DNA of 64,000 bases from an uncultured Rhodospirillaceae bacterium (lineage in GTDB: Bacteria > Pseudomonadota > Alphaproteobacteria > GCA-2731375). The position numbers and the translations under genes were made by a program. Numbering within the stretch: position 1 is the first letter of the stretch; each line of letters starts with the position of its first letter. The stretch covers positions 19,209-83,208 of the forward strand of contig CAZVYX010000003.1 of NCBI GenBank assembly GCA_964631725.1, written 5' to 3'. Below are positions 51,090 to 59,576 of the stretch, in pieces. The notes beneath the pieces were generated by a model. That model did not search any database, had not been told where the DNA came from, and saw only the letters and a program-made list of their open reading frames with translations.

Positions 51090-52787
51090 TCAATATCTTG
51101 CCGTGGCCCGCTCTATCTGCTCGATCATGATTTTGGCGAAGTCCGGGTCGTCAAAATATTCGTCATAGGCCTCTTGAATAAAGGCCAGGGTCACCGGATC
51201 GGGCAGGCCGTAATTGTTGAACGCGTTAGGCGGCTGGTCATCCCAGATCCCATCATGGCGGTAGCCCATCGCCTCCAGTAATTCGATGCCCTGCTTAGGT
51301 ATGGTCAGATCGACGACCAGGGCATCATCCGCCTCGCAGGCATCGTTTAGGGGCGGCGTATCGCCGGGGTAGTAGACGCTGGCCTGTTCGCCGCAGTAGG
51401 TCGCGCTCGATGGCGCCGCCGCGCCCCGCCCGACTGTTGAAAGCGCCAGGTTGGCGAGCACATCCTGGGTCGCGCCAAGCGCAATGCGGTCGCTTTTCTC
51501 GGCCCCGCCAAAGGCGCCAAGCGCCGTGGCGATCTGCATGTAGTGGCGCGCGGCGGAGACGTTCCGCGTCCGCGCAATGATCGCCGCCTCCTTCTTGATG
51601 CGGTCGAGAATGGCACCCTTGTTCTTGCGGATCGCCTGCATTTTGTAGCGAAGGCGCGAGACGGTGCCCGCTTCGAAGCGGGCCAGGGCATAGCGCTGTT
51701 GACGCGCCTTCCGCTTTTTCACTCCAGCATTGGACGCGGGCGCCCGCGCGGCGGTTTTGATGCCCGGCGGCTCGGCCCAGGGCGTACTTATAATTCCGCT
51801 GGGATCGTGTTTTTGCTGTCCGCCTGACGATTTTCGCCCACCGCCCGCCCGGCCGCGCCGCTTGCGTTCCCGGTATTTGGCGAAGCGCTGCAACATGGCC
51901 TGCTGGTTGCGCGCGCCGCCCGTGGCGGCCAGTTGTTTCAACTCCTCCACCGACAGCACACCCGACATATAGTCGGGTGCGTTGGGCTTCTTGATGTGGA
52001 TCGCCGCCATGTTCTTGAGCGATTTCAGGGTCTTGCGAAAATCGTCCGGAATGCACTTTTCGCCGGCCAGAACGACTTCCCGACACAGGCGCTGGGCGAC
52101 GCTGTCCCACAAATGCGCATCCTCGCAGGCAACGCCCTTTTTCTTCAGCTCGGCGCAACGGCGATGTTGCCGAAAGGAATCTTCCGGCGTTTTCGCCTTG
52201 AACGGGCCGTCGCCCCTGTTCTTGCAGGCCGAGTTGAAGGCCATCTGTGCCGGGTCGGAGGTGTCACAGGCGGTGAACGCGGCGTTGCGCCGGCCGGCAT
52301 CAATGCGGGCCTGTTCGGCGCGGCGGGCTTCTTCCGCCGCCTTGCGCCGGTTGATTTCGGCCTGACGCGCAACTTCTTCCTGCCACTTGCGTGCCGCCTC
52401 GGCCTGCAGGCGCGCCTGTTCCCGGGCCTGCTTCTGCTCGTAAGCCTGAATGCGCTGGCGATGCGCCGCGGCCTTTTGCTCAGCCTCCGCCGCCCAGGAG
52501 CTCATCAGGCCGACAATGCCTATGACGCCGGTTAGGGCCGACGCCGCCCTGTTTCCACCACTACCACCGCCGCTGTAAGAGCCGCCGCCGCGCCGGCCCG
52601 TGCAATAGGCCTGAATGGCATTGCGGTATTGCTGCGCCGCGGCATATTGCGCCGCCGGATTGTGGCCCCGCCGGGCATAATTCAGCGCCTGGTTCATACG
52701 GTTCCGCAATTGCGCGCAGCCCTGTTGTGCCGCTGCCGGCTCCGGCGCCAAGAGCATAGCCGCGAGCACCGCGATAGCGGCAGCCAT
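51090..52787 (-). CDS. hypothetical large secreted protein with a Gly-rich segment and a long Arg/Glu/Ala coiled coil
   Basis: Start taken at MAAAIAVLAAMLLAPEPAAAQQ. It contains GGGSYSGGGSGGN, the coiled-coil QAREQARLQAEAARKWQEEVARQAEINRRKAAEEARRAEQAR, several Cys pairs, and an acidic C-terminus. Confidence 0.5.
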   Translation of the reverse strand: MAAAIAVLAAMLLAPEPAAAQQGCAQLRNRMNQALNYARRGHNPAAQYAAAQQYRNAIQAYCTGRRGGGSYSGGGSGGNRAASALTGVIGIVGLMSSWAAEAEQKAAAHRQRIQAYEQKQAREQARLQAEAARKWQEEVARQAEINRRKAAEEARRAEQARIDAGRRNAAFTACDTSDPAQMAFNSACKNRGDGPFKAKTPEDSFRQHRRCAELKKKGVACEDAHLWDSVAQRLCREVVLAGEKCIPDDFRKTLKSLKNMAAIHIKKPNAPDYMSGVLSVEELKQLAATGGARNQQAMLQRFAKYRERKRRGRAGGGRKSSGGQQKHDPSGIISTPWAEPPGIKTAARAPASNAGVKKRKARQQRYALARFEAGTVSRLRYKMQAIRKNKGAILDRIKKEAAIIARTRNVSAARHYMQIATALGAFGGAEKSDRIALGATQDVLANLALSTVGRGAAAPSSATYCGEQASVYYPGDTPPLNDACEADDALVVDLTIPKQGIELLEAMGYRHDGIWDDQPPNAFNNYGLPDPVTLAFIQEAYDEYFDDPDFAKIMIEQIERATARY

Positions 52788-52976
52788 GGCCAACCGCCGC
52801 GCGGTTATCCCATATATTCCCCATCCGGTGATTGGCCCCTGTCCGATGCAGCGGTTCGTCATGACCAGATCCCAAGCTGCGGCATGCCACAAACAGTGAT
52901 GGATCTTACCATAATATGTTTCGCCAATGGGATTTTGCTGTGTATTTTATTACCTGCACTTGCGGAGGTCCTTGTA

Positions 52977-54248
52977 ATGTTTGGTTCCGTTGCTTACCCG
53001 CGCAAGGCCATGTTGGCTTCGGCCGCCGGGATTTACTGCCTGCTGGCGGCGTCATTTGCGTGCAGTGTTCCGGTCAAGGCGGCCGGGAATACGCCTGTGC
53101 CATCAACTACTTGGCTGCAGCTTGCCGATGCCCGCAAGGGCGCCGCCGACCGGCTGTTCCTCACGGCCATCAAGCTCTACCGCGCCGGCGATCTGGAGGG
53201 CGCGGCGGAGAATTTCGAGATGGGCCTGAGCATCGACCCCGAAAACCCCGTGGCGCATTTCTACTTTGCCGAAACCCTCAGCGACATGAAGCGGGACAAG
53301 GCCGCGCTGGCCCACTACCGAAAGGCGTCGGAACTGGCCCCCGGTTCCGAGGAAGGCATCATCGCCAACCTGAAGCTGAAGAAACTGGCGCAAAAGTTTG
53401 CGCCCGGAAAAGTGTTCAAAGACTGCGATAGCTGCCCCGAAATGGTCGTCATTCCGGCGGGATCGTTCATCATGGGTTCGAGGGAGCAAGAACGAATTTG
53501 GGCGGCCAAAAGCGCTTGGCCAGATGCCAAATACAGCTCGGAAAGGGCCTCCCATAAGCGCATGTATGACGGTATGGAATCTCCAAACCGGCGGGTCACG
53601 CTGCGCTACGCCTTCGCTATTGGTCGCTATGAAGTGACCGTCGGTCAATGGAAGGCATGCGTGGCGGCGGCTAAATGCAAGGAACTGCCGAAAGATTTCG
53701 ACTATAGGGGCAAACCGGTCCAAAGACCCGACGATGTCGCGGTTCATAAAGTGAGTTGGAACGGCGTCAAATCATACCTGCAATGGCTCAGCCTGAAGAC
53801 CGGCCTACGTTATCGATTACCAAGCGAATCCGAGTGGGAATATATGGCGCGCGCCGGCACCACGACAGCCTTCAATTTCGGGCAGAACATCGATGTCAGC
53901 CAAGCGCATTTCTCGGATGTCTATGGCGGAATAAGCCATTACGCACCGATTTCGGTCGGGCGGTACCAAGCCAACGCATTTGGTGTTTACGACGTACATG
54001 GAAACGTTGCCGAAATAACCGAGGATTGTCAGGGCGCGTATGGCAGCGTGCCGTCAGACGGCAGCGCACATACGCCGTCGGGATCCTATAGCAATTGCCA
54101 TGCCAGAATGACGCGCGGTGGTTCCTTTTCCGACGGCCGGCACGCAGTCCGATCGGCGGCACGCGGCGTTACGATGGTCCTGGGCCTTGACGGCAAAGAC
54201 TTCCATGCAATTGGTTTGGGCTTCCGCGTGACGCGAGATTTGGATTGA
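52977..54248 (+). CDS. secreted TPR-repeat protein fused to an FGE-sulfatase (SUMF1/formylglycine-generating-enzyme-like) domain
   Basis: GGAGG RBS, signal peptide MFGSVAYPRKAMLASAAGIYCLLAASFA, and a TPR-like module LQLADARKGAADRLFLTAIKLYRAGDLEGAAENFEMGLSIDPENPVAHFYFAETL. Then VVIPAGSFIMGS...YRLPSESEWEYMARAG...RGGSF, the FGE-sulfatase fold. Confidence 0.7.
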   Translation: MFGSVAYPRKAMLASAAGIYCLLAASFACSVPVKAAGNTPVPSTTWLQLADARKGAADRLFLTAIKLYRAGDLEGAAENFEMGLSIDPENPVAHFYFAETLSDMKRDKAALAHYRKASELAPGSEEGIIANLKLKKLAQKFAPGKVFKDCDSCPEMVVIPAGSFIMGSREQERIWAAKSAWPDAKYSSERASHKRMYDGMESPNRRVTLRYAFAIGRYEVTVGQWKACVAAAKCKELPKDFDYRGKPVQRPDDVAVHKVSWNGVKSYLQWLSLKTGLRYRLPSESEWEYMARAGTTTAFNFGQNIDVSQAHFSDVYGGISHYAPISVGRYQANAFGVYDVHGNVAEITEDCQGAYGSVPSDGSAHTPSGSYSNCHARMTRGGSFSDGRHAVRSAARGVTMVLGLDGKDFHAIGLGFRVTRDLD

Positions 54249-54256
54249 GGTTCGAA

Positions 54257-55291
54257 ATGAAACGAACCAGACCATACAGATGTATTTCAGCAGCGCTCTC
54301 GGTTTTGCTTGCCATAACGGTTCTTGGCTCCGCCCAGGCCCGTGATCCAAAGACGTCCCGATTCCTGCAACTGGCCGATGCGAAGTCAGAGGCGGCAGAT
54401 CAGGTCTTTCTGGAGGCCGTGAAGCTCTACCGCGCCGGTGATCTGGCCGGCGCGGTGGAACAGTTCGAACTGGGCCTGTCGATCGACCCCAATAATGCCG
54501 CCGGGCATTTCTACCTGGCCAAGACTTATGATGGCCTGAAGCGCCGCAACGATGCGTTGATCCACTATCGGAAGGCGGCTGAACTTGGCCCCGGCACCAA
54601 GGAAGGCATTATTGCGGCGGCAACTGTAAAGAGCCTCGAGAAGAAGCTTCGGGATAAGGCCGCCGCCGAACAGAAACGCGTCGAGGAAGAGCGGAAACGG
54701 AAGGAGGTCTCGGCGCTGCTCAGCACGGAAAATATCGACCGCTGTTACAAGAACAAGCAACCGAAAACCATGCTGCAAGGCTGCAATGCCTTGATTCGCT
54801 ATTACTCGGCCAAGAACGAGATGACGCCTGATCCTATGCACATGTTCAGTTTGGCCGGAGCCATTCTACAGCGGGCCATCGCCCATGGACACAACCGCGA
54901 CTGGAGCGCCGCCATTGACGATTTCGAACAGGTCATCGCGATACGCAAGCCTGTCATCATGGATAGCGAGTTCAAGACAAACAATGCCAATTCGCTTGTC
55001 AGCGCAACCAATGGACTGGCCTGGCTGCGCGCCACCTGTCCGGATGGTCGTTATCGCTCAGGCGCCGAGGCGGTTCGTCTTGCGGCCGAGGCGGTACGCA
55101 TGCGGCCCTGGCCGGAATATCGCGACACCCTGGCCGCCGCCTATGCCGAGGCCGGTCGGTTCGAGGATGCCGCCAGTGAGCAGGAAGCCGCGATTGCCAT
55201 GCTCAACGACAGAGGCAAACAATTGTATCTGAAGAAATTCCGGGCCCGATTGGCCCTCTATCGTCAGGGGAAACCGTATCGAGCTCCATAA
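54257..55291 (+). CDS. secreted TPR-repeat protein, paralog 2 of the tandem array
   Basis: Signal peptide ISAALSVLLAITVLGSAQA, then the same N-terminal TPR module (FLQLADAKSEAADQVFLEAVKLYRAGDLAGA). The C-terminus ends in ARLALYRQGKPYRAP. Confidence 0.6.
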   Translation: MKRTRPYRCISAALSVLLAITVLGSAQARDPKTSRFLQLADAKSEAADQVFLEAVKLYRAGDLAGAVEQFELGLSIDPNNAAGHFYLAKTYDGLKRRNDALIHYRKAAELGPGTKEGIIAAATVKSLEKKLRDKAAAEQKRVEEERKRKEVSALLSTENIDRCYKNKQPKTMLQGCNALIRYYSAKNEMTPDPMHMFSLAGAILQRAIAHGHNRDWSAAIDDFEQVIAIRKPVIMDSEFKTNNANSLVSATNGLAWLRATCPDGRYRSGAEAVRLAAEAVRMRPWPEYRDTLAAAYAEAGRFEDAASEQEAAIAMLNDRGKQLYLKKFRARLALYRQGKPYRAP

Positions 55292-55717
55292 TGGCCAAGG
55301 TAAGCTGATCCAGCCTGGGCGAACGATGATGCATTGAGATCTGATATGACACGCGCATTGACATACCGATTGCCGTTGACACTGCTTGGTGTTTTTCTTG
55401 TTCTCGCCCTCCATGCTCCCGCCAATGCCGGCGATCCGCAGGCGCCCGTGGTCCTGCAAGTCGCGGACGCGCGGTCGGAGGCGGCGGACCGCTTCTTCCT
55501 CAAGGCGGTGAAGCTGTATCGCTCCGGCGATCTGACGGGTGCGGCGGAGCAGTTCAAGCTTGGTCTGAGCATCAATCCGGAGAACCCGGTGGCGCACTAC
55601 TATTACGCCGAAACCCTGAAGGCCATGCAGCGCGAGGCGGAGGCCCTGGCGCATTACGAAAAAGCGGCGAAATTCGGCCCTGACACCACCGAAGGCATCA
55701 TGGCGGCGGCGGTCATG
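55260..55717 (+). repeat. direct repeat copy 1 (~458 bp), spanning gene end, intergenic spacer and 5' end of the next TPR gene
   Basis: tcgtcaggggaaaccgtatcgagctccataatggccaaggtaagctgatccagcctgggcgaacgatgatgcattgagatctgatatgacacgcgcattgacataccg... recurs at 56337. The first ~220 bp match exactly and the rest shows scattered mismatches. The repeat period is 1077 bp. Confidence 0.85.
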
Positions 55718-56368
55718 CCAGGGCTCAGGCGTAAGGTCGAGGCGACCGAAAAGAAGAAAACGGAAAGGAAAGCGGAAAAAAAGGCCGCCGCCGAGAAGGT
55801 TCATTGCTCGCCTTTCGCTACCGGCACGACAGATGTGATCAAGGTGTGCAGTGAAAAAATTCGAGCCTTTGCGGAGCAACAAGTGAATCCGTCGAAGTTC
55901 ATGTTCAAGGATCCGGCCTACATGGGTGCCGACTATCACACTATCCGCGCAAATGCATACTTCCGGAACGGCAATTTTTCTGCTGCTGTTCGTGACTTCG
56001 AGAGATCCATGGATTTGGAGAAACAGGTCGTTTGGGAAAACTACCCAGGATTAGCGACTCCAGATATGACGCGTTGGGAAGCGCTCAGGGGATTCGCCTG
56101 GCTGCGGGCGACCTGTCGGGACAAACGTTACCGCTCGGGCGCTGACGCGGTTCGCCTCGCCCTTGAAGCCGTTCGTATGCACCGCTGGCCGCAAGCGCAA
56201 GATACCCTGGCCGCCGCCTACGCCGAAGCCGGTCGGTTCGGGGATGCCGTCAGGGAGCAGCAAGCGGCGATTGCAAACCTTTCCGATTCCGGCAAACAAC
56301 AATTCTTGAAACAATTCCAGGCTCGATTGGCCCTCTATCGTCAGGGGAAACCGTATCGAGCTCCATAA
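55346..56368 (+). CDS. secreted TPR-repeat protein, paralog 3
   Basis: MTRALTYRLPLTLLGVFLVLALHAPANA signal, a TPR module, and the same ...ARLALYRQGKPYRAP end. The 5' part lies within direct repeat copy 1. Confidence 0.6.
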   Translation: MTRALTYRLPLTLLGVFLVLALHAPANAGDPQAPVVLQVADARSEAADRFFLKAVKLYRSGDLTGAAEQFKLGLSINPENPVAHYYYAETLKAMQREAEALAHYEKAAKFGPDTTEGIMAAAVMPGLRRKVEATEKKKTERKAEKKAAAEKVHCSPFATGTTDVIKVCSEKIRAFAEQQVNPSKFMFKDPAYMGADYHTIRANAYFRNGNFSAAVRDFERSMDLEKQVVWENYPGLATPDMTRWEALRGFAWLRATCRDKRYRSGADAVRLALEAVRMHRWPQAQDTLAAAYAEAGRFGDAVREQQAAIANLSDSGKQQFLKQFQARLALYRQGKPYRAP

Positions 56369-56794
56369 TGGCCAAGGTAAGCTGATCCAGCCTGGGCGAA
56401 CGATGATGCATTGAGATCTGATATGACACGCGCATTGACATACCGATTGCCGTTGACACTGCTTGGTGTTTTTCTTGTTCTCGCCCTCCATGCTCCCGCC
56501 AATGCCGGCGATCCGCAGGCGCCCGTGGTCCTGCAACTGGCCGACGCGCGATCCGAAGCGGCGGACCGCTTCTTCCTCAAGGCGGTGCAGCTGTACCGGG
56601 CCGGCGATCTGACGGGCGCGGCGGAGCAGTTCGAGTTTGGCCTGAGCATCAATCCGGAGAACCCGGTGGCGCACTACTATTACGCCGAGACCCTGAAGGC
56701 CATGCAACGCGAGGCGGAGGCCCTGGCCCATTACGAAAAAGCGGCGAAATTCGGCCCCGACACCACCGAAGGCATCATGGCGGCGGCGGTCATA
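56337..56794 (+). repeat. direct repeat copy 2
   Basis: Same as copy 1. The identical 103-aa minus-strand ORFs 55264..55575 and 56341..56652 in the ORF track are by-products of this repeat. Confidence 0.85.
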
Positions 56795-57499
56795 ACAAAG
56801 CTCAAGCGCAAGGTAGACGCGGCCAAGGCGGCGCAAGACGCCAAAACGCGGGCGCAAGCCGATATCGCCGATGAAAAGGCGTGCGAGGATTGGGAATCGA
56901 CGCCAAGCCGGCGGAACCAAGGCTGTACGGCGGTCATCGTGAAACTTTCAGCCCCGCCGATTACTGCTTTGAAAGACTTGGCGGTGGCATTGTGGCGACG
57001 GGCCTCCAACCAAGCTCTACTCGGCAAATGCGCGGCGGCTGTCAAAGATCTAGTGCGGGCGCGTAATCTATTGCTTGAGCTGACAAAGGGAAAACCCCGC
57101 CAAGACAACTTTGACTACCTTACTCTCGAAGATGTCACTATTGGCCTCACAAATGTCCTAACGACGTCACCGCGCCGCCAATGCAGGTCGGGAAAGGAAG
57201 CTTTGCGATTGGCCGCGGAGTTCCCAATTTTCCGCGATGACAAGACGGAGCGACATCATAGGGCCCTGGCGCCCATCTATGCGGAAGTCGGACAATTCGA
57301 CCGCGCCATACAAGAGCAGGAAGCAGCCATAGAATCGCGGAAGCAATTCTTCAAGGAAGTGTCCTGGTCCAAGGCCGATATGAAAACAGTTCTTGATAGC
57401 ATGCAGCAAGTTTTGGAAGTCCTGCGAAAACATAAGCCAATCCGATATTGCAAGATGGCGGAAAAGCAATTTACAGAACTCTGCGACGGGATCGATTAG
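56423..57499 (+). CDS. secreted TPR-repeat protein, paralog 4 (divergent C-terminal half)
   Basis: The first ~150 codons are near-identical to paralog 3 at the DNA level. The C-terminal half is different (…KPIRYCKMAEKQFTELCDGID). Confidence 0.6.
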   Translation: MTRALTYRLPLTLLGVFLVLALHAPANAGDPQAPVVLQLADARSEAADRFFLKAVQLYRAGDLTGAAEQFEFGLSINPENPVAHYYYAETLKAMQREAEALAHYEKAAKFGPDTTEGIMAAAVITKLKRKVDAAKAAQDAKTRAQADIADEKACEDWESTPSRRNQGCTAVIVKLSAPPITALKDLAVALWRRASNQALLGKCAAAVKDLVRARNLLLELTKGKPRQDNFDYLTLEDVTIGLTNVLTTSPRRQCRSGKEALRLAAEFPIFRDDKTERHHRALAPIYAEVGQFDRAIQEQEAAIESRKQFFKEVSWSKADMKTVLDSMQQVLEVLRKHKPIRYCKMAEKQFTELCDGID

Positions 57500-57512: not shown

Positions 57513-58478
57513 TCAGGCGGTCTTGGCGTTGCGTTCAGTGAAATGGCACAGGCCCAGCAGGGCGCGGGCCTCGTCCTCGACGGCTGCGGGCCGGTGGATG
57601 AAGCTGGCCGGGCGCGGCGCTGCCAACAGGATGCCGTCACCGTCCACGTGACAACGGATACTGTCGCAATTCATTGCCCACGCTAGTTCATCCAGCGCCT
57701 CGACAAGTCCGCTATCAGCGGCTTGGGCCGCGTCTTCCGGGTTGTCGGCGCGAACCTGGAAGTTACCAGTCAGCCCTCCACCGACTTCCGACGGCAGGTT
57801 GGCCGCCGCGATCCAGCAGGATTTGACGCCAGCGCCCAGCAAGGCCAGCCGGCCTTGTAGCGGCATTGGTGATGGCAACGCGGCCAGGAAACCCTCGAAC
57901 ACGGTCTCATCGTCGCCGTCGGGCCAGATCATGCTCAGTTCGACGTCGGCAATCTCGCAGGCGCTACCGTTCGAACCCCGGCGGAACAGTGCGCGGCACC
58001 GGGGCTGGGCAAATTCCGCCACCAGCCCGGCCCTGAAAAAAGATGTTGCGTCAAAATCCTTCCCACTGCCGATTTCGTACCGCCAGCCGGGCCGGAACGC
58101 GGCAATGGTGCGAAACAGCAGGGCGCGGATGTCCAGGTTCTGCCGCCGCGCCACATCCATGGCGCCCAGGCCGCCCAGGATAAGGCCGATGATGATCAGG
58201 CCGCCGCCAAGCCAAGCCAGATCGATCCGCGCGGCCAGGCCCGTATCCCCGGCCAGCATCAGCTGCCAAAACCGACCATCGAAGCGATAGACGATCCAGG
58301 CCATGGCGGCGGCAAGCCCCGCCAGCCCGCCCAGAACGATGCGCCGGATCATCGCCCCACGCCGGCGGCGGGCGGTCGGTTGCAACCGGCGCAGCTCGGG
58401 TGCGGCGATGCGCGCGAAGACCGCCGCGTAGCCCGCCTCGTGCGGCGCCCGTTCGCGAAAGCCATAGTCCTCGCTCAT
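57513..58478 (-). CDS. hypothetical membrane protein: cytoplasmic N-terminus, two TM helices, ~200-aa C-terminal domain
   Basis: Start at MSEDYGFRERAPHEAGYAAVF with AAGAGGAAG RBS. TM segments IVLGGLAGLAAAMAWIVY and LGGGLIIIGLILGGLGAM. No recognisable catalytic motif. Confidence 0.5.
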   Translation of the reverse strand: MSEDYGFRERAPHEAGYAAVFARIAAPELRRLQPTARRRRGAMIRRIVLGGLAGLAAAMAWIVYRFDGRFWQLMLAGDTGLAARIDLAWLGGGLIIIGLILGGLGAMDVARRQNLDIRALLFRTIAAFRPGWRYEIGSGKDFDATSFFRAGLVAEFAQPRCRALFRRGSNGSACEIADVELSMIWPDGDDETVFEGFLAALPSPMPLQGRLALLGAGVKSCWIAAANLPSEVGGGLTGNFQVRADNPEDAAQAADSGLVEALDELAWAMNCDSIRCHVDGDGILLAAPRPASFIHRPAAVEDEARALLGLCHFTERNAKTA

Positions 58479-58581
58479 GGCATCTTCCTCTTTCCGCCCG
58501 ACGGGTGGGACCGATTGTCCTCGCATCGAAACAGCGAAAGCAGGCGCGGCCATTGTCCCACCCGCGCGCGTCGCGACGCAA

Positions 58582-59079
58582 CTAGCCCGGGTCGATTTCC
58601 TGGAACACCCCCAAATTCCTCGCAACCTGGAAATAACCCTCGATATCGAACCTTGCTGACAGGTTCACAGAGGCGATCCGTTCCAGGGCGTCGAAATCGT
58701 CGGAACCGAACGTCAAGTCGGACCCCGGCAGTTCCGCCTTGGCGCGCATCTCGATCGGTCCGGTTCGTGTCGTCCCGCCGCCCTCAAGAAACCTGGTCGG
58801 AAAGCTCAATTGCAGCACCGGCAGTTCGTCCCCCTTACTGTCGATTGGCGCGGCATATTGGCTGCCCAGGATCAGGAGAGCCGGATCCCTGAACGCGATT
58901 CTCGGTTGCGACAGCCCCGGCATGCCAGTGTTGTCCTGCTCCGGCGCGGTGTTGTGAAGGATATAATCGATCGTGAAGGTCTCGCCGACATTGATCGAGC
59001 GGTCGAACCCGACCGCGCTGGTCTCGGCGGTCAGGTCGAGATAGCTTCTGGCCTCCGCCCATAATGAATACATCTGCAT
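58582..59079 (-). CDS. hypothetical soluble protein (~165 aa), upstream partner of the membrane protein
   Basis: MQMYSLWAEARSYLDLTAETSAVGFDRSINVGETFTIDYILHNTAP... with GGGAGAAA RBS; no known motif. Confidence 0.45.
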   Translation of the reverse strand: MQMYSLWAEARSYLDLTAETSAVGFDRSINVGETFTIDYILHNTAPEQDNTGMPGLSQPRIAFRDPALLILGSQYAAPIDSKGDELPVLQLSFPTRFLEGGGTTRTGPIEMRAKAELPGSDLTFGSDDFDALERIASVNLSARFDIEGYFQVARNLGVFQEIDPG

Positions 59080-59134
59080 ATCATAATTTCTCCCAGAATC
59101 TGTGGATCGACGCCATTGCCGGTTTTGCAACGGG

Positions 59135-59311
59135 CTAGCGGCGTCGCTCCAGAATGGTCGCAACCAACCAGGCGCCGCAAATGGCGACAGTCGCACCGCC
59201 GATGACCATGAAGGCCTCGTCCCAGCCCACATAACGTTCAAGGATATGACCGAGGAGCAACGCCGCAATGATGGCTCCGGCAACGGTGTATTTTCTTGCG
59301 CGCGGTGTCAT
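59135..59311 (-). CDS. possible small two-helix membrane protein (58 aa)
   Basis: MTPRARKYTVAGAIIAALLLGHILERYVGWDEAFMVIGGATVAICGAWLVATILERRR. There is no clear SD sequence. Confidence 0.2.
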   Translation of the reverse strand: MTPRARKYTVAGAIIAALLLGHILERYVGWDEAFMVIGGATVAICGAWLVATILERRR

Positions 59312-59486
59312 CGGGCAATCGTAGACCAATGGGACTTGCGCCGTCCCGAATTATCACACCGAATCCCGCTTCCTGAGAGCCCAAAGCGGAAGGGCCCAGC
59401 CGGCTTCAAATGTGGGACTATGGGTGGGGCTAATCACAGACGTAGACGCGGCATTTGATGTATTTCAATAAGTTAGCTGCCAAAAA

Positions 59487-59576
59487 TGGCGGATGGGGTG
59501 GGATTCGAACCCACGAGACGCTTTCACGCCTGCTGGTTTTCAAGACCAGTGCCTTCAACCACTCGGCCACCCATCC
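59487..59576 (-). tRNA. tRNA-Ser (anticodon UGA)
   Basis: The reverse complement GGATGGGTGGCCGAGTGGTTGAAGGCACTGGTCTTGAAAACCAGCAGGCGTGAAAGCGTCTCGTGGGTTCGAATCCCACCCCATCCGCCA folds as a class II tRNA. It has a 7-bp acceptor stem, anticodon loop CTTGAAA, a long variable arm, T-loop GGTTCGAATCC, and an encoded CCA. Confidence 0.9.

What the first reader, a model, noticed from the sequence alone, without database searches (positions are those of the whole stretch)
57513..59576. tRNA-Ser-adjacent two-gene cassette of unknown function (soluble 165-aa protein plus two-TM membrane protein with a 200-aa C-terminal domain)
Two co-directional genes with good RBSs sit immediately beside the 3' end of tRNA-Ser(UGA), a classic insertion hot-spot. 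Neither protein shows a recognisable motif. The architecture, a small soluble partner plus a membrane protein with a cytoplasmic N-terminus and a large C-terminal domain, resembles many recently described two-component defence or abortive-infection cassettes. A possible 58-aa hydrophobic peptide gene lies between them and the tRNA. No integrase is present, so this is either an old island remnant or a core locus.
Basis: inference. Interest (0 to 1): 0.5.

Follow-up and report, generated by a model that had tools for sequence, protein, structure and literature searches.

The report
Two unlinked orphan genes beside tRNA-Ser
The genes next to tRNA-Ser are real, but they are two independent genes of unknown function (a divergent DUF3137 membrane protein and a rare small soluble protein) that happen to be neighbours in a variable region, not a recognisable two-gene defence system.

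Summary
On the minus strand, tRNA-Ser(UGA) is followed by a 58-aa two-TM ORF, a 165-aa acidic soluble protein (A) and a 321-aa membrane protein (B) with two TM helices and a ~190-aa C-terminal domain.

The "two-component defence cassette" reading is not supported.
- B is not motif-less. It is a very divergent full-length homolog of alphaproteobacterial DUF3137 (PF11335) proteins (hhalign 99.5%, E 4e-23).
- A belongs to a tiny orphan family: six 90% clusters plus one paralog, all from marine metagenomes or MAGs. It is under purifying selection (dN/dS about 0.25).
- A's relatives lie in five other contexts, none with a DUF3137 neighbour. None of nine DUF3137 relatives' loci encodes an A-like sequence.
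- PADLOC, phage and plasmid searches found nothing.

The hot-spot idea is partly right. The two closest relatives carry different DNA after this tRNA-Ser, and one has an integrase-like gene there. A and B nevertheless have native-like codon composition, and the window shows no att repeat or integrase.

Verdict: ordinary hypothetical genes in a variable locus, low interest.

The parts
59487..59576 (-). tRNA-Ser(UGA), 90 nt, with encoded CCA end
   Evidence: ARAGORN; Rfam RF00005 at 63.1 bits. No second copy of its 3' 25 nt in the window with up to 3 mismatches.
59401..59486 (-). About 85 nt of flank after the tRNA that is still homologous in the closest relative (L025). Synteny with L025 breaks just beyond it.
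   Evidence: tblastx of L025 against the window ends at window 59401-59412; DNA alignment A5.
59135..59311 (-). 58-aa ORF with two predicted TM helices. Its coding status is unresolved.
   Evidence: ORF list; hydropathy. Gene callers call it in all same-population contigs. There are no homologs outside identical contigs, only chance-level family hits, and GC3 is 0.68.
59091..59106 (-). Small hairpin UCCA-N-UGGGA overlapping the Shine-Dalgarno of gene A. It is part of about 35 nt of upstream sequence that travels with gene A in other genomes.
   Evidence: Upstream alignment A4. The same small stem is predicted in the four A-homolog leaders folded (window, L007, L009, L013). The L010 paralog leader folds into a different, much stronger structure (z -2.57). 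None of the four is more stable than shuffles (z about 0).
58582..59079 (-). Gene A: 165-aa acidic soluble protein of a small orphan family found only in marine metagenomes and Alphaproteobacteria MAGs
   Evidence: Six clusters at 60-100% identity plus a 39% paralog in L010. dN/dS is 0.23-0.29. No hit in Pfam, NCBIfam, PHROGs, PADLOC or PDB sequences. The AlphaFold model is unusable at pLDDT 38.
57513..58478 (-). Gene B: 321-aa inner-membrane protein, a divergent member of the DUF3137 (PF11335) architecture
   Evidence: Exhaustive phmmer found 10 hits. The best full-length hit has E 8e-11. Eight of the nine hits scanned (all but a 226-aa truncated one; the 63-aa fragment P0008 was not scanned) pass the PF11335 threshold. 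hhalign against 11 such proteins gives 99.5%, E 4.4e-23, over residues 1-312. The AlphaFold model has pLDDT 79.4 and pTM 0.76.
58389..58460 (-). B residues 7-30: the conserved N-terminal cytoplasmic motif F-x-ERAPHEAG(F/Y)AAVF...(I/A)AP, the best-conserved part of this DUF3137 subfamily
   Evidence: Alignments A2 and A6. The same motif was the pattern that retrieved genome loci.
58143..58349 (-). B residues 44-112: a TM hairpin (TM1 about 44-66, TM2 about 87-112). Arg-rich flanks on the N- and C-terminal sides imply that both termini are cytoplasmic.
   Evidence: Hydropathy; long helices 17-66 and 87-128 in the model; the positive-inside rule applied to the sequence (inference).
57516..58091 (-). 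B residues 130-321: a C-terminal alpha/beta domain (DUF3137 region) with a TtfA/CCDC47-like fold. It lacks the subfamily's invariant ED..G.HR motif.

Best explanation
A and B are two functionally independent genes that are neighbours only in this organism. They lie in a variable stretch downstream of tRNA-Ser(UGA).

B is a fast-evolving member of the DUF3137 family. It has a conserved cytoplasmic N-terminal motif, a TM hairpin, and a cytoplasmic C-terminal alpha/beta domain with the fold of mycobacterial TtfA and eukaryotic CCDC47. Both of those are membrane-tethered, non-enzymatic accessory factors that dock onto membrane transport or insertion machines. By inference, B most likely acts as a membrane-anchored adaptor or scaffold for another membrane protein, not as an enzyme or a pore-forming effector.

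A is a small, acidic, probably beta-rich cytoplasmic protein of a rare marine alphaproteobacterial family. It carries its own short upstream region from place to place and works without a dedicated partner.

Shown: gene reality, family assignment of B, fold similarity, lack of co-occurrence, and variability of the locus. Inferred: topology and the adaptor role. The biochemical role of A is unknown.
For: B is DUF3137-like:
- full-length homology, E 4e-23, to proteins that pass PF11335.
- the model has pLDDT 79.4.

What is known of TtfA:
[quoted passage not shown] It binds MmpL3 and is needed for trehalose monomycolate transport (PMC6593404).
- Its crystal structure shows no lipid pocket (PMC7458404).

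No A-B linkage:
- A homologs lie in five contexts: ADH|A|MlrC; DUF2852|A|TauE; A followed by convergent ArgB and a GTPase; A followed by a Zn-ADH; and a paralog between YjbR and a dehydroquinase.
- Nucleotide homology to the window is confined to gene A plus about 35 nt upstream.
- tblastn finds no A-like sequence in eight DUF3137 loci, and one of them has LemA instead. A ninth short locus (L107) shows no second co-directional gene.

Both genes are under purifying selection and have native-like GC3. There are no PADLOC, phage or plasmid hits.

Locus variability.
Against: - A and B are co-directional, 103 nt apart, with no predicted terminator between them. They may be co-transcribed here.
- The pair, with the 58-aa ORF, is absent from the same site in the two closest relatives. 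That is what an accessory module would look like.
- The fold of A is unknown because the model failed, so a cryptic functional link cannot be excluded.
- B lacks the subfamily's invariant ED..G.HR motif, so it may not share the family's function at all.
- Few A and B relatives exist and many contigs are short, so absence of co-occurrence rests on about 14 loci.
Confidence: 0.6

Rival explanations
1. The 58-aa ORF, A and B form a lineage-specific accessory module, such as a new abortive-infection, toxin-antitoxin or membrane-stress system, acquired at the tRNA-Ser hot-spot. A would be a soluble sensor or regulator and B the membrane effector.
For: - The genes are co-directional and closely spaced, with good ribosome-binding sites and no predicted terminator between them.
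- The trio is absent at the same site in relatives with 91-92% acyl-CoA dehydrogenase identity.
- One of those relatives has an integrase-like gene at this tRNA.
- Both proteins are rare and fast-evolving.
Against: - There is no co-occurrence of the two families in any other locus examined.
- PADLOC finds nothing for them, their neighbours or B's relatives.
- They are not on phages or plasmids.
- Their GC3 is native-like, unlike the adjacent TPR cluster.
- Gene A moves alone with its own leader.
Confidence: 0.1
2. The whole stretch from the tRNA to about 52.6 kb is the decayed remnant of an integrated genomic island that has lost its integrase and att repeat. The stretch comprises the 58-aa ORF, A, B, three TPR paralogs and a TPR/FGE-sulfatase fusion. 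A and B would be unrelated cargo genes.
For: - Synteny with L025 breaks about 85 nt after the tRNA.
- L026 carries an integrase-like ORF at the same tRNA.
- The TPR/FGE block has GC3 0.65 against 0.75-0.80 in the surrounding genes.
- A 75%-identical B fragment is again convergent with a TPR paralog in another organism (L105), so B and the TPR genes travel together.
Against: - The window has no integrase, no direct repeat of the tRNA 3' end and no other mobility gene.
- A and B themselves have native-like composition.
- The far boundary could not be located, because the relatives' contigs end soon after the tRNA.
Confidence: 0.3
3. One or more of the ORFs is not a real gene. In particular, the 58-aa hydrophobic ORF is a chance open frame in GC-rich DNA.
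For: - The 58-aa ORF has no homolog outside identical contigs.
- It has no substitutions from which to judge selection.
- It has a weak ribosome-binding site, and its GC3 of 0.68 is below that of native genes.
Against: - A and B are clearly real: they have conserved homologs, dN/dS of 0.2-0.3 and the correct codon-position GC pattern.
- Two independent gene callers call the 58-aa ORF, and it has two clean TM segments.
Confidence: 0.4

Closest known systems
DUF3137 (Pfam PF11335) membrane proteins, alphaproteobacterial subfamily with the N-terminal ERAPHEAGFA motif
   Same: - Same length (321 aa against 326-345 aa).
- Same order of parts: N-terminal motif, TM hairpin, C-terminal domain.
- Full-length profile match: 99.5%, E 4.4e-23.
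   Different: - B does not reach the PF11335 model itself (no hit at E <= 1).
- It is only 21-27% identical to its relatives.
- It lacks the subfamily-invariant ED..G.HR motif.
- It has no LemA neighbour, whereas L023 does.
- The family has no known function. Only two incidental mentions were found in the paper library.
TtfA (MSMEG_0736/Rv0383c), trehalose monomycolate transport factor A of mycobacteria (PDB 6T84)
   Same: - Membrane-anchored, with a cytoplasmic alpha/beta domain.
- Topology and role as an MmpL3 partner come from PMC6593404.
   Different: - 16% identity, with no sequence-level match.
- TtfA has one N-terminal TM helix, whereas B has an N-terminal cytoplasmic motif plus a hairpin.
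[quoted passage not shown] No MmpL3 context was looked for here.
CCDC47 (DUF1682), subunit of the ER PAT complex and multipass translocon (PDB 7TUT chain 4, 9I78 chain 4)
   Different: Eukaryotic; 11-13% identity; it has a long coiled coil that B lacks. This is a fold-level resemblance on a predicted model only.
tRNA-linked genomic islands and two-gene anti-phage defence cassettes
   Same: - Adjacent to the 3' end of a tRNA gene.
- Content differs between close relatives, and an integrase-like gene sits at the same tRNA in L026.
- The architecture is a small soluble protein plus a membrane protein.
   Different: - The window has no integrase and no att repeat.
- A and B have native codon composition.
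- There is no PADLOC match.
- The two genes do not co-occur elsewhere.

Membership tests
DUF3137 (PF11335) | Scores above the Pfam gathering threshold (26.1 bits) for PF11335 | tested here: not met
   B gives no Pfam hit even at E <= 1. Eight of the nine relatives scanned score 27.6-84.7 bits.
DUF3137 (PF11335) | Significant full-length homology to bona fide family members | tested here: met
   phmmer E 8.4e-11 to P0009, with residues 7-309 matching 19-308. hhalign against 11 members gives 99.5%, E 4.4e-23, over 294 aligned columns.
DUF3137 (PF11335) | Architecture: two N-terminal TM helices followed by the soluble C-terminal domain | tested here: met
   Hydropathy segments at 44-66 and 81-112. 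The model has two long helices followed by a beta-rich domain at 130-320. The alignment is in register with members.
DUF3137 (PF11335) | Subfamily-invariant residues of the C-terminal half (E-D, then G-x-H-R, then F-x-G and P) | tested here: inconclusive
   F194, G196 and P204 are kept. The ED..G.HR motif is replaced by RA..R.SN.
LemA-DUF3137 gene pair | A LemA (PF04011) gene directly upstream of the DUF3137 gene | tested here: not met
   tblastn finds no LemA-like sequence anywhere in the 64-kb window. Only L023 of eight relatives' loci has one.
TtfA family | Sequence homology to TtfA and an association with MmpL3 and mycolate synthesis | tested here: not met
   The profile search of PDB sequences does not find 6T84. 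The similarity is structural only, at 16% identity. The MmpL3 context was not looked for.
TtfA/CCDC47-like fold | Structural superposition of the soluble domain with a significant score | tested here: met
Known anti-phage defence systems (PADLOC-DB 2.0) | A match of any component to a defence-system HMM | tested here: not met
   No hits for A, B, the 58-aa ORF, five neighbouring proteins or ten DUF3137 relatives including B.
Conserved two-gene system (any kind) | Co-occurrence of the two families in other, diverged genomes | tested here: not met
   The five other contexts of A have no DUF3137 neighbour. tblastn finds no A-like sequence in eight DUF3137 loci. A ninth short locus shows none.
tRNA-integrated genomic island | Integrase gene and a direct repeat of the tRNA 3' end bounding the element | tested here: not met
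   No integrase ORF and no repeat with up to 3 mismatches in 64 kb.
tRNA-integrated genomic island | Presence/absence polymorphism at the tRNA flank among close relatives | tested here: met
   L025 and L026 carry different DNA after the same acyl-CoA dehydrogenase and tRNA-Ser junction. None of 80 relatives' loci encodes A, B or the 58-aa ORF.
tRNA-integrated genomic island | Atypical base composition of the inserted genes | tested here: not met
   GC3 is 0.765 for A and 0.78 for B, against 0.75-0.80 in flanking housekeeping genes. Only the adjacent TPR/FGE block is atypical, at 0.65.

The most novel reading that the evidence does not exclude
The 58-aa ORF, A and B constitute a previously undescribed, lineage-restricted membrane-acting accessory module inserted at a tRNA-Ser hot-spot, for example a new abortive-infection or envelope-stress system. 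In it, a degenerate DUF3137 protein that has lost the family's ED..HR motif has been recruited as effector, and the orphan beta-rich protein A as its soluble partner.
Probability: 0.07. Interest if true: 0.6.

Novelty: new member of a known kind. Interest (0 to 1): 0.22.

Why it matters
As a defence candidate it matters little, because the evidence points away from a dedicated two-gene system.

Two modest points of value remain.
- DUF3137 is a widespread bacterial family with no assigned function. The predicted TtfA/CCDC47-like fold of its cytoplasmic domain gives a testable idea: these proteins may be membrane-tethered accessory factors of transport or insertion machines. No paper in the searched library connects these families.
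- Protein A represents a very small, conserved, marine alphaproteobacterial family. It has no detectable relatives and relocates as a single gene with its own leader. That makes it a clean target for structure prediction with deeper alignments.

Tried and rejected
Searches that gave nothing:
- Direct Pfam, NCBIfam, PHROG and PADLOC scans of A, B and the 58-aa ORF gave only chance hits to the short hydrophobic ORF.
The exhaustive search was needed.
- A profile search for more distant A relatives found no new members.
- Pattern scans of viral and metagenome contigs with the A-family alignment found none.
- tblastn of A against phages and plasmids found no match.
- PDB sequence searches with the A and B profiles gave nothing significant.
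- The cluster look-up gave no names or taxonomy.
- The Rfam scan of the region found only the tRNA.
- The promoter and terminator scan found nothing above shuffle expectation.

Structure work:
- AlphaFold on A with 6 sequences gave pLDDT 38, which is unusable. No fold search was therefore run on A.
- Foldseek of the B model against the PDB found nothing at E < 0.1.
- Foldseek against BFVD gave one marginal uncharacterised viral protein with TM about 0.25.
- The AFDB library was unavailable.

Specific ideas tested and rejected:
- Whether the 174-aa gene downstream of a DUF3137 relative (L017) is a hidden A homolog: no, hhalign probability 0.2%.
- Whether the conserved region upstream of A is coding: rejected, because homologs differ in frame there (reading of the sequences).
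- Whether that region is a stable RNA structure: not supported, z about 0.
- Whether the flanks of A homologs share orthologs with the window, to give a divergence baseline: none were found. Horizontal transfer of A against rearrangement therefore could not be decided.
Full report
**What is there.** All features of the finding are on the minus strand. tRNA-Ser(UGA) occupies 59487-59576 (Rfam tRNA). Downstream of its 3' end lie three ORFs:
- a 58-aa ORF at 59135-59311 with two hydrophobic segments;
- gene A at 58582-59079, encoding a 165-aa protein with no TM segment and an acidic composition;
- gene B at 57513-58478, encoding a 321-aa protein.

A has a GGGAG Shine-Dalgarno 10 nt before its ATG, and B a GAGGA 7 nt before its ATG. 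B has two TM segments, at about residues 44-66 and 87-112, and a C-terminal domain of roughly 190 residues.

Some gene callers use a 346-aa start for B. That start is less likely. Its extension has GC3 of only 0.59, and homologs begin just before the conserved N-terminal motif.

**Are the genes real?** A and B show the same codon-position GC pattern as the neighbouring acyl-CoA dehydrogenase and methylmalonyl-CoA mutase genes (GC3 0.765 and 0.78, against 0.79-0.80). A compared with four homologs gives dN/dS of 0.23-0.29. The last 63 codons of B compared with a 75%-identical fragment give 0.20. Both genes are under purifying selection.

The 58-aa ORF cannot be judged. It occurs only in contigs identical to the window, with no substitutions. 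It has a weak ribosome-binding site and lower GC3 (0.68).

**Origin of the window.** The window is essentially identical to marine metagenome contigs of up to 209 kb. The only named relatives of either protein are uncultured Alphaproteobacteria MAGs. No source gives A or B a name.

**Protein B.**
- Direct scans against Pfam, NCBIfam, PHROGs and PADLOC found nothing.
- The word-indexed search found only B itself.
- An exhaustive phmmer search of 1.84 billion representatives found just ten proteins. Nine are of similar or shorter length at 27-32% identity.
- Eight of those nine pass the Pfam threshold for DUF3137, PF11335.
- A profile of eleven such proteins, without B, aligns to B over residues 1-312 with 99.5% probability and E 4.4e-23.

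The shared architecture has three parts:
- a conserved N-terminal motif, F-x-ERAPHEAGFAAVF...IAP;
- a TM hairpin;
- the DUF3137 domain.

B is thus a very divergent member of a known family of unknown function. It keeps the N-terminal motif and the F-x-G...P residues. It has lost the subfamily-invariant ED..G.HR motif (EDLFxGxHRxT becomes RALFRRGSNGS).

The sequence used for the searches and the model (P0001) is a population variant. It differs from the window's B by one residue, F156Y.

**Structure of B.** With the ten-sequence alignment, AlphaFold gave pLDDT 79.4 and pTM 0.76.
- Everything else was generic helical matching to the long TM helices.

TtfA is anchored by an N-terminal TM helix with its C-terminus in the cytoplasm. 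[quoted passage not shown] Its crystal structure has no obvious lipid pocket (PMC7458404).

The Arg-rich sequences before TM1 and after TM2 of B imply that both termini are cytoplasmic (inference). The most economical mechanistic guess is therefore a membrane-tethered adaptor for another membrane machine. This is inference only. The library holds only two papers that mention DUF3137, both incidentally, and none that links CCDC47 with TtfA.

**Protein A.**
- It has five other 90% clusters at 60-81% identity, all from marine metagenomes or MAGs.
- A profile search added none.
- A 39%-identical paralog lies 1.3 kb upstream of the homolog in L010.
- No family library, PDB sequence, phage record or plasmid record matches the family.
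- The AlphaFold model was unusable at pLDDT 38, so the fold is unknown. Sequence periodicity and the partial model suggest an N-terminal helix followed by beta strands. That is inference only.

**Are A and B a pair?** This is the crux, and the answer is no on present evidence. A-family genes were found in these contexts:
- between an alcohol dehydrogenase and MlrC/DUF1485 (L007, L008, L012);
- between DUF2852 and TauE (L009-L011);
- followed by convergent ArgB and a GTPase (L013-L016);
- followed by a Zn-dependent alcohol dehydrogenase (L106);
- as a paralog, between YjbR and a dehydroquinase (L010).

None of these contexts has a DUF3137-like gene or a tRNA-Ser.

DNA similarity between those loci and the window is confined to gene A plus about 35 nt upstream. 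That stretch contains a small hairpin overlapping the Shine-Dalgarno. The hairpin is conserved but not thermodynamically significant.

Conversely, tblastn finds no A-like sequence in eight genome loci encoding DUF3137 relatives of B. One of them has LemA directly upstream with overlapping stop and start. A ninth, 1.4-kb contig shows no second co-directional gene. The window has no LemA.

PADLOC finds nothing in A, B, the 58-aa ORF, the five neighbouring proteins or B's relatives.

**Is the locus an island?** Partly. Using the adjacent acyl-CoA dehydrogenase as an anchor, 80 related loci were fetched. None encodes A, B or the 58-aa ORF.
- L025, the closest relative (92% identity), keeps the dehydrogenase, tRNA-Ser and about 85 nt of flank. 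It then continues with an M19 dipeptidase, a 2-hydroxyacid dehydrogenase and a luciferase-like monooxygenase.
- In L026 (91%), similarity stops inside the tRNA. AT-rich DNA and a 410-aa integrase-like ORF follow (PF00589, 24.1 bits, just under the threshold).

Against an island in the window itself:
- there is no integrase and no repeat of the tRNA 3' end;
- A and B have native-like composition;
- only the adjacent TPR/FGE-sulfatase block is compositionally atypical, with GC3 0.65.

A 980-nt contig from another organism (L105) carries a 75%-identical B C-terminus, again convergent with a TPR paralog. B's association with the TPR genes is therefore older than its association with A can be shown to be. 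The far boundary of the variable region could not be located.

**Verdict.** The genes are real and the anatomy is as described. The interpretation as a two-component defence cassette is not supported. The best reading is two independent genes of unknown function in a variable, tRNA-adjacent stretch:
- a divergent DUF3137 membrane protein with a TtfA/CCDC47-like cytoplasmic domain;
- a member of a tiny orphan family that relocates alone.

Interest is low, at 0.22. The most novel reading not excluded is a lineage-specific module using a degenerate DUF3137 protein as effector. I give it about 7%.

Noticed in passing
window 52887-57499 (+ strand): Three tandem paralogous TPR proteins carry signal-peptide-like N-termini (54245-55291, 55334-56368, 56411-57499; repeat period 1077 nt). 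They follow a TPR/FGE-sulfatase fusion protein (about 52887-54248). Their GC3 is about 0.65, against 0.75-0.80 in surrounding genes. A same-population contig (L001) has one paralog fewer, and several contigs break inside the repeat. That indicates copy-number polymorphism by unequal recombination.
   Followed up: partly
L026:9684-11125: In a relative with 91% acyl-CoA dehydrogenase identity, similarity to tRNA-Ser stops at about the anticodon arm and ARAGORN finds no tRNA. AT-rich DNA follows, then a 410-aa ORF with a sub-threshold Phage_integrase match (24.1 bits against 27.1). This suggests an element inserted in, and apparently disrupting, this tRNA-Ser.
   Followed up: partly
window 59091-59112 (- strand); L007:386-418, L009:~590-622, L013:~130-165: About 35 nt upstream of every A-family gene is conserved across unrelated genomic contexts (consensus TGATTCCCGCCGATCCA..AATCTGGGAG). 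It can form a 4-5 bp hairpin that occludes the Shine-Dalgarno. The window copy retains only the proximal part. Folding energies are no better than shuffles, so any regulatory role is unproven.
   Followed up: partly
L010:5126-5602: A second, 39%-identical paralog of protein A (158 aa) lies 1.3 kb upstream of the 60%-identical homolog in the same contig. The A family is therefore older and more diverse than the word-indexed searches show.
   Followed up: partly
L105:1-980: A short Logan contig from another organism carries the C-terminal 63 codons of a 75%-identical B homolog, convergent with a TPR paralog as in the window. An in-frame stop just upstream could mean a pseudogene or an assembly error.
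   Followed up: partly
window 57996-58028 (B residues about 151-161): B has replaced the DUF3137-subfamily invariant motif EDLFxGxHRxT with RALFRRGSNGS, while keeping the N-terminal ERAPHE motif. It may be a degenerate, non-canonical member.
   Followed up: partly
window 51090-52892 (- strand): A 565-600-aa ORF next to the TPR/FGE block has no Pfam or PADLOC match at all.
   Followed up: no
L023:569-2148: One DUF3137 relative is translationally coupled to an upstream LemA gene, with a 4-nt overlap. The other seven genome loci lack LemA, so the LemA link is not universal in this subfamily.
   Followed up: yes
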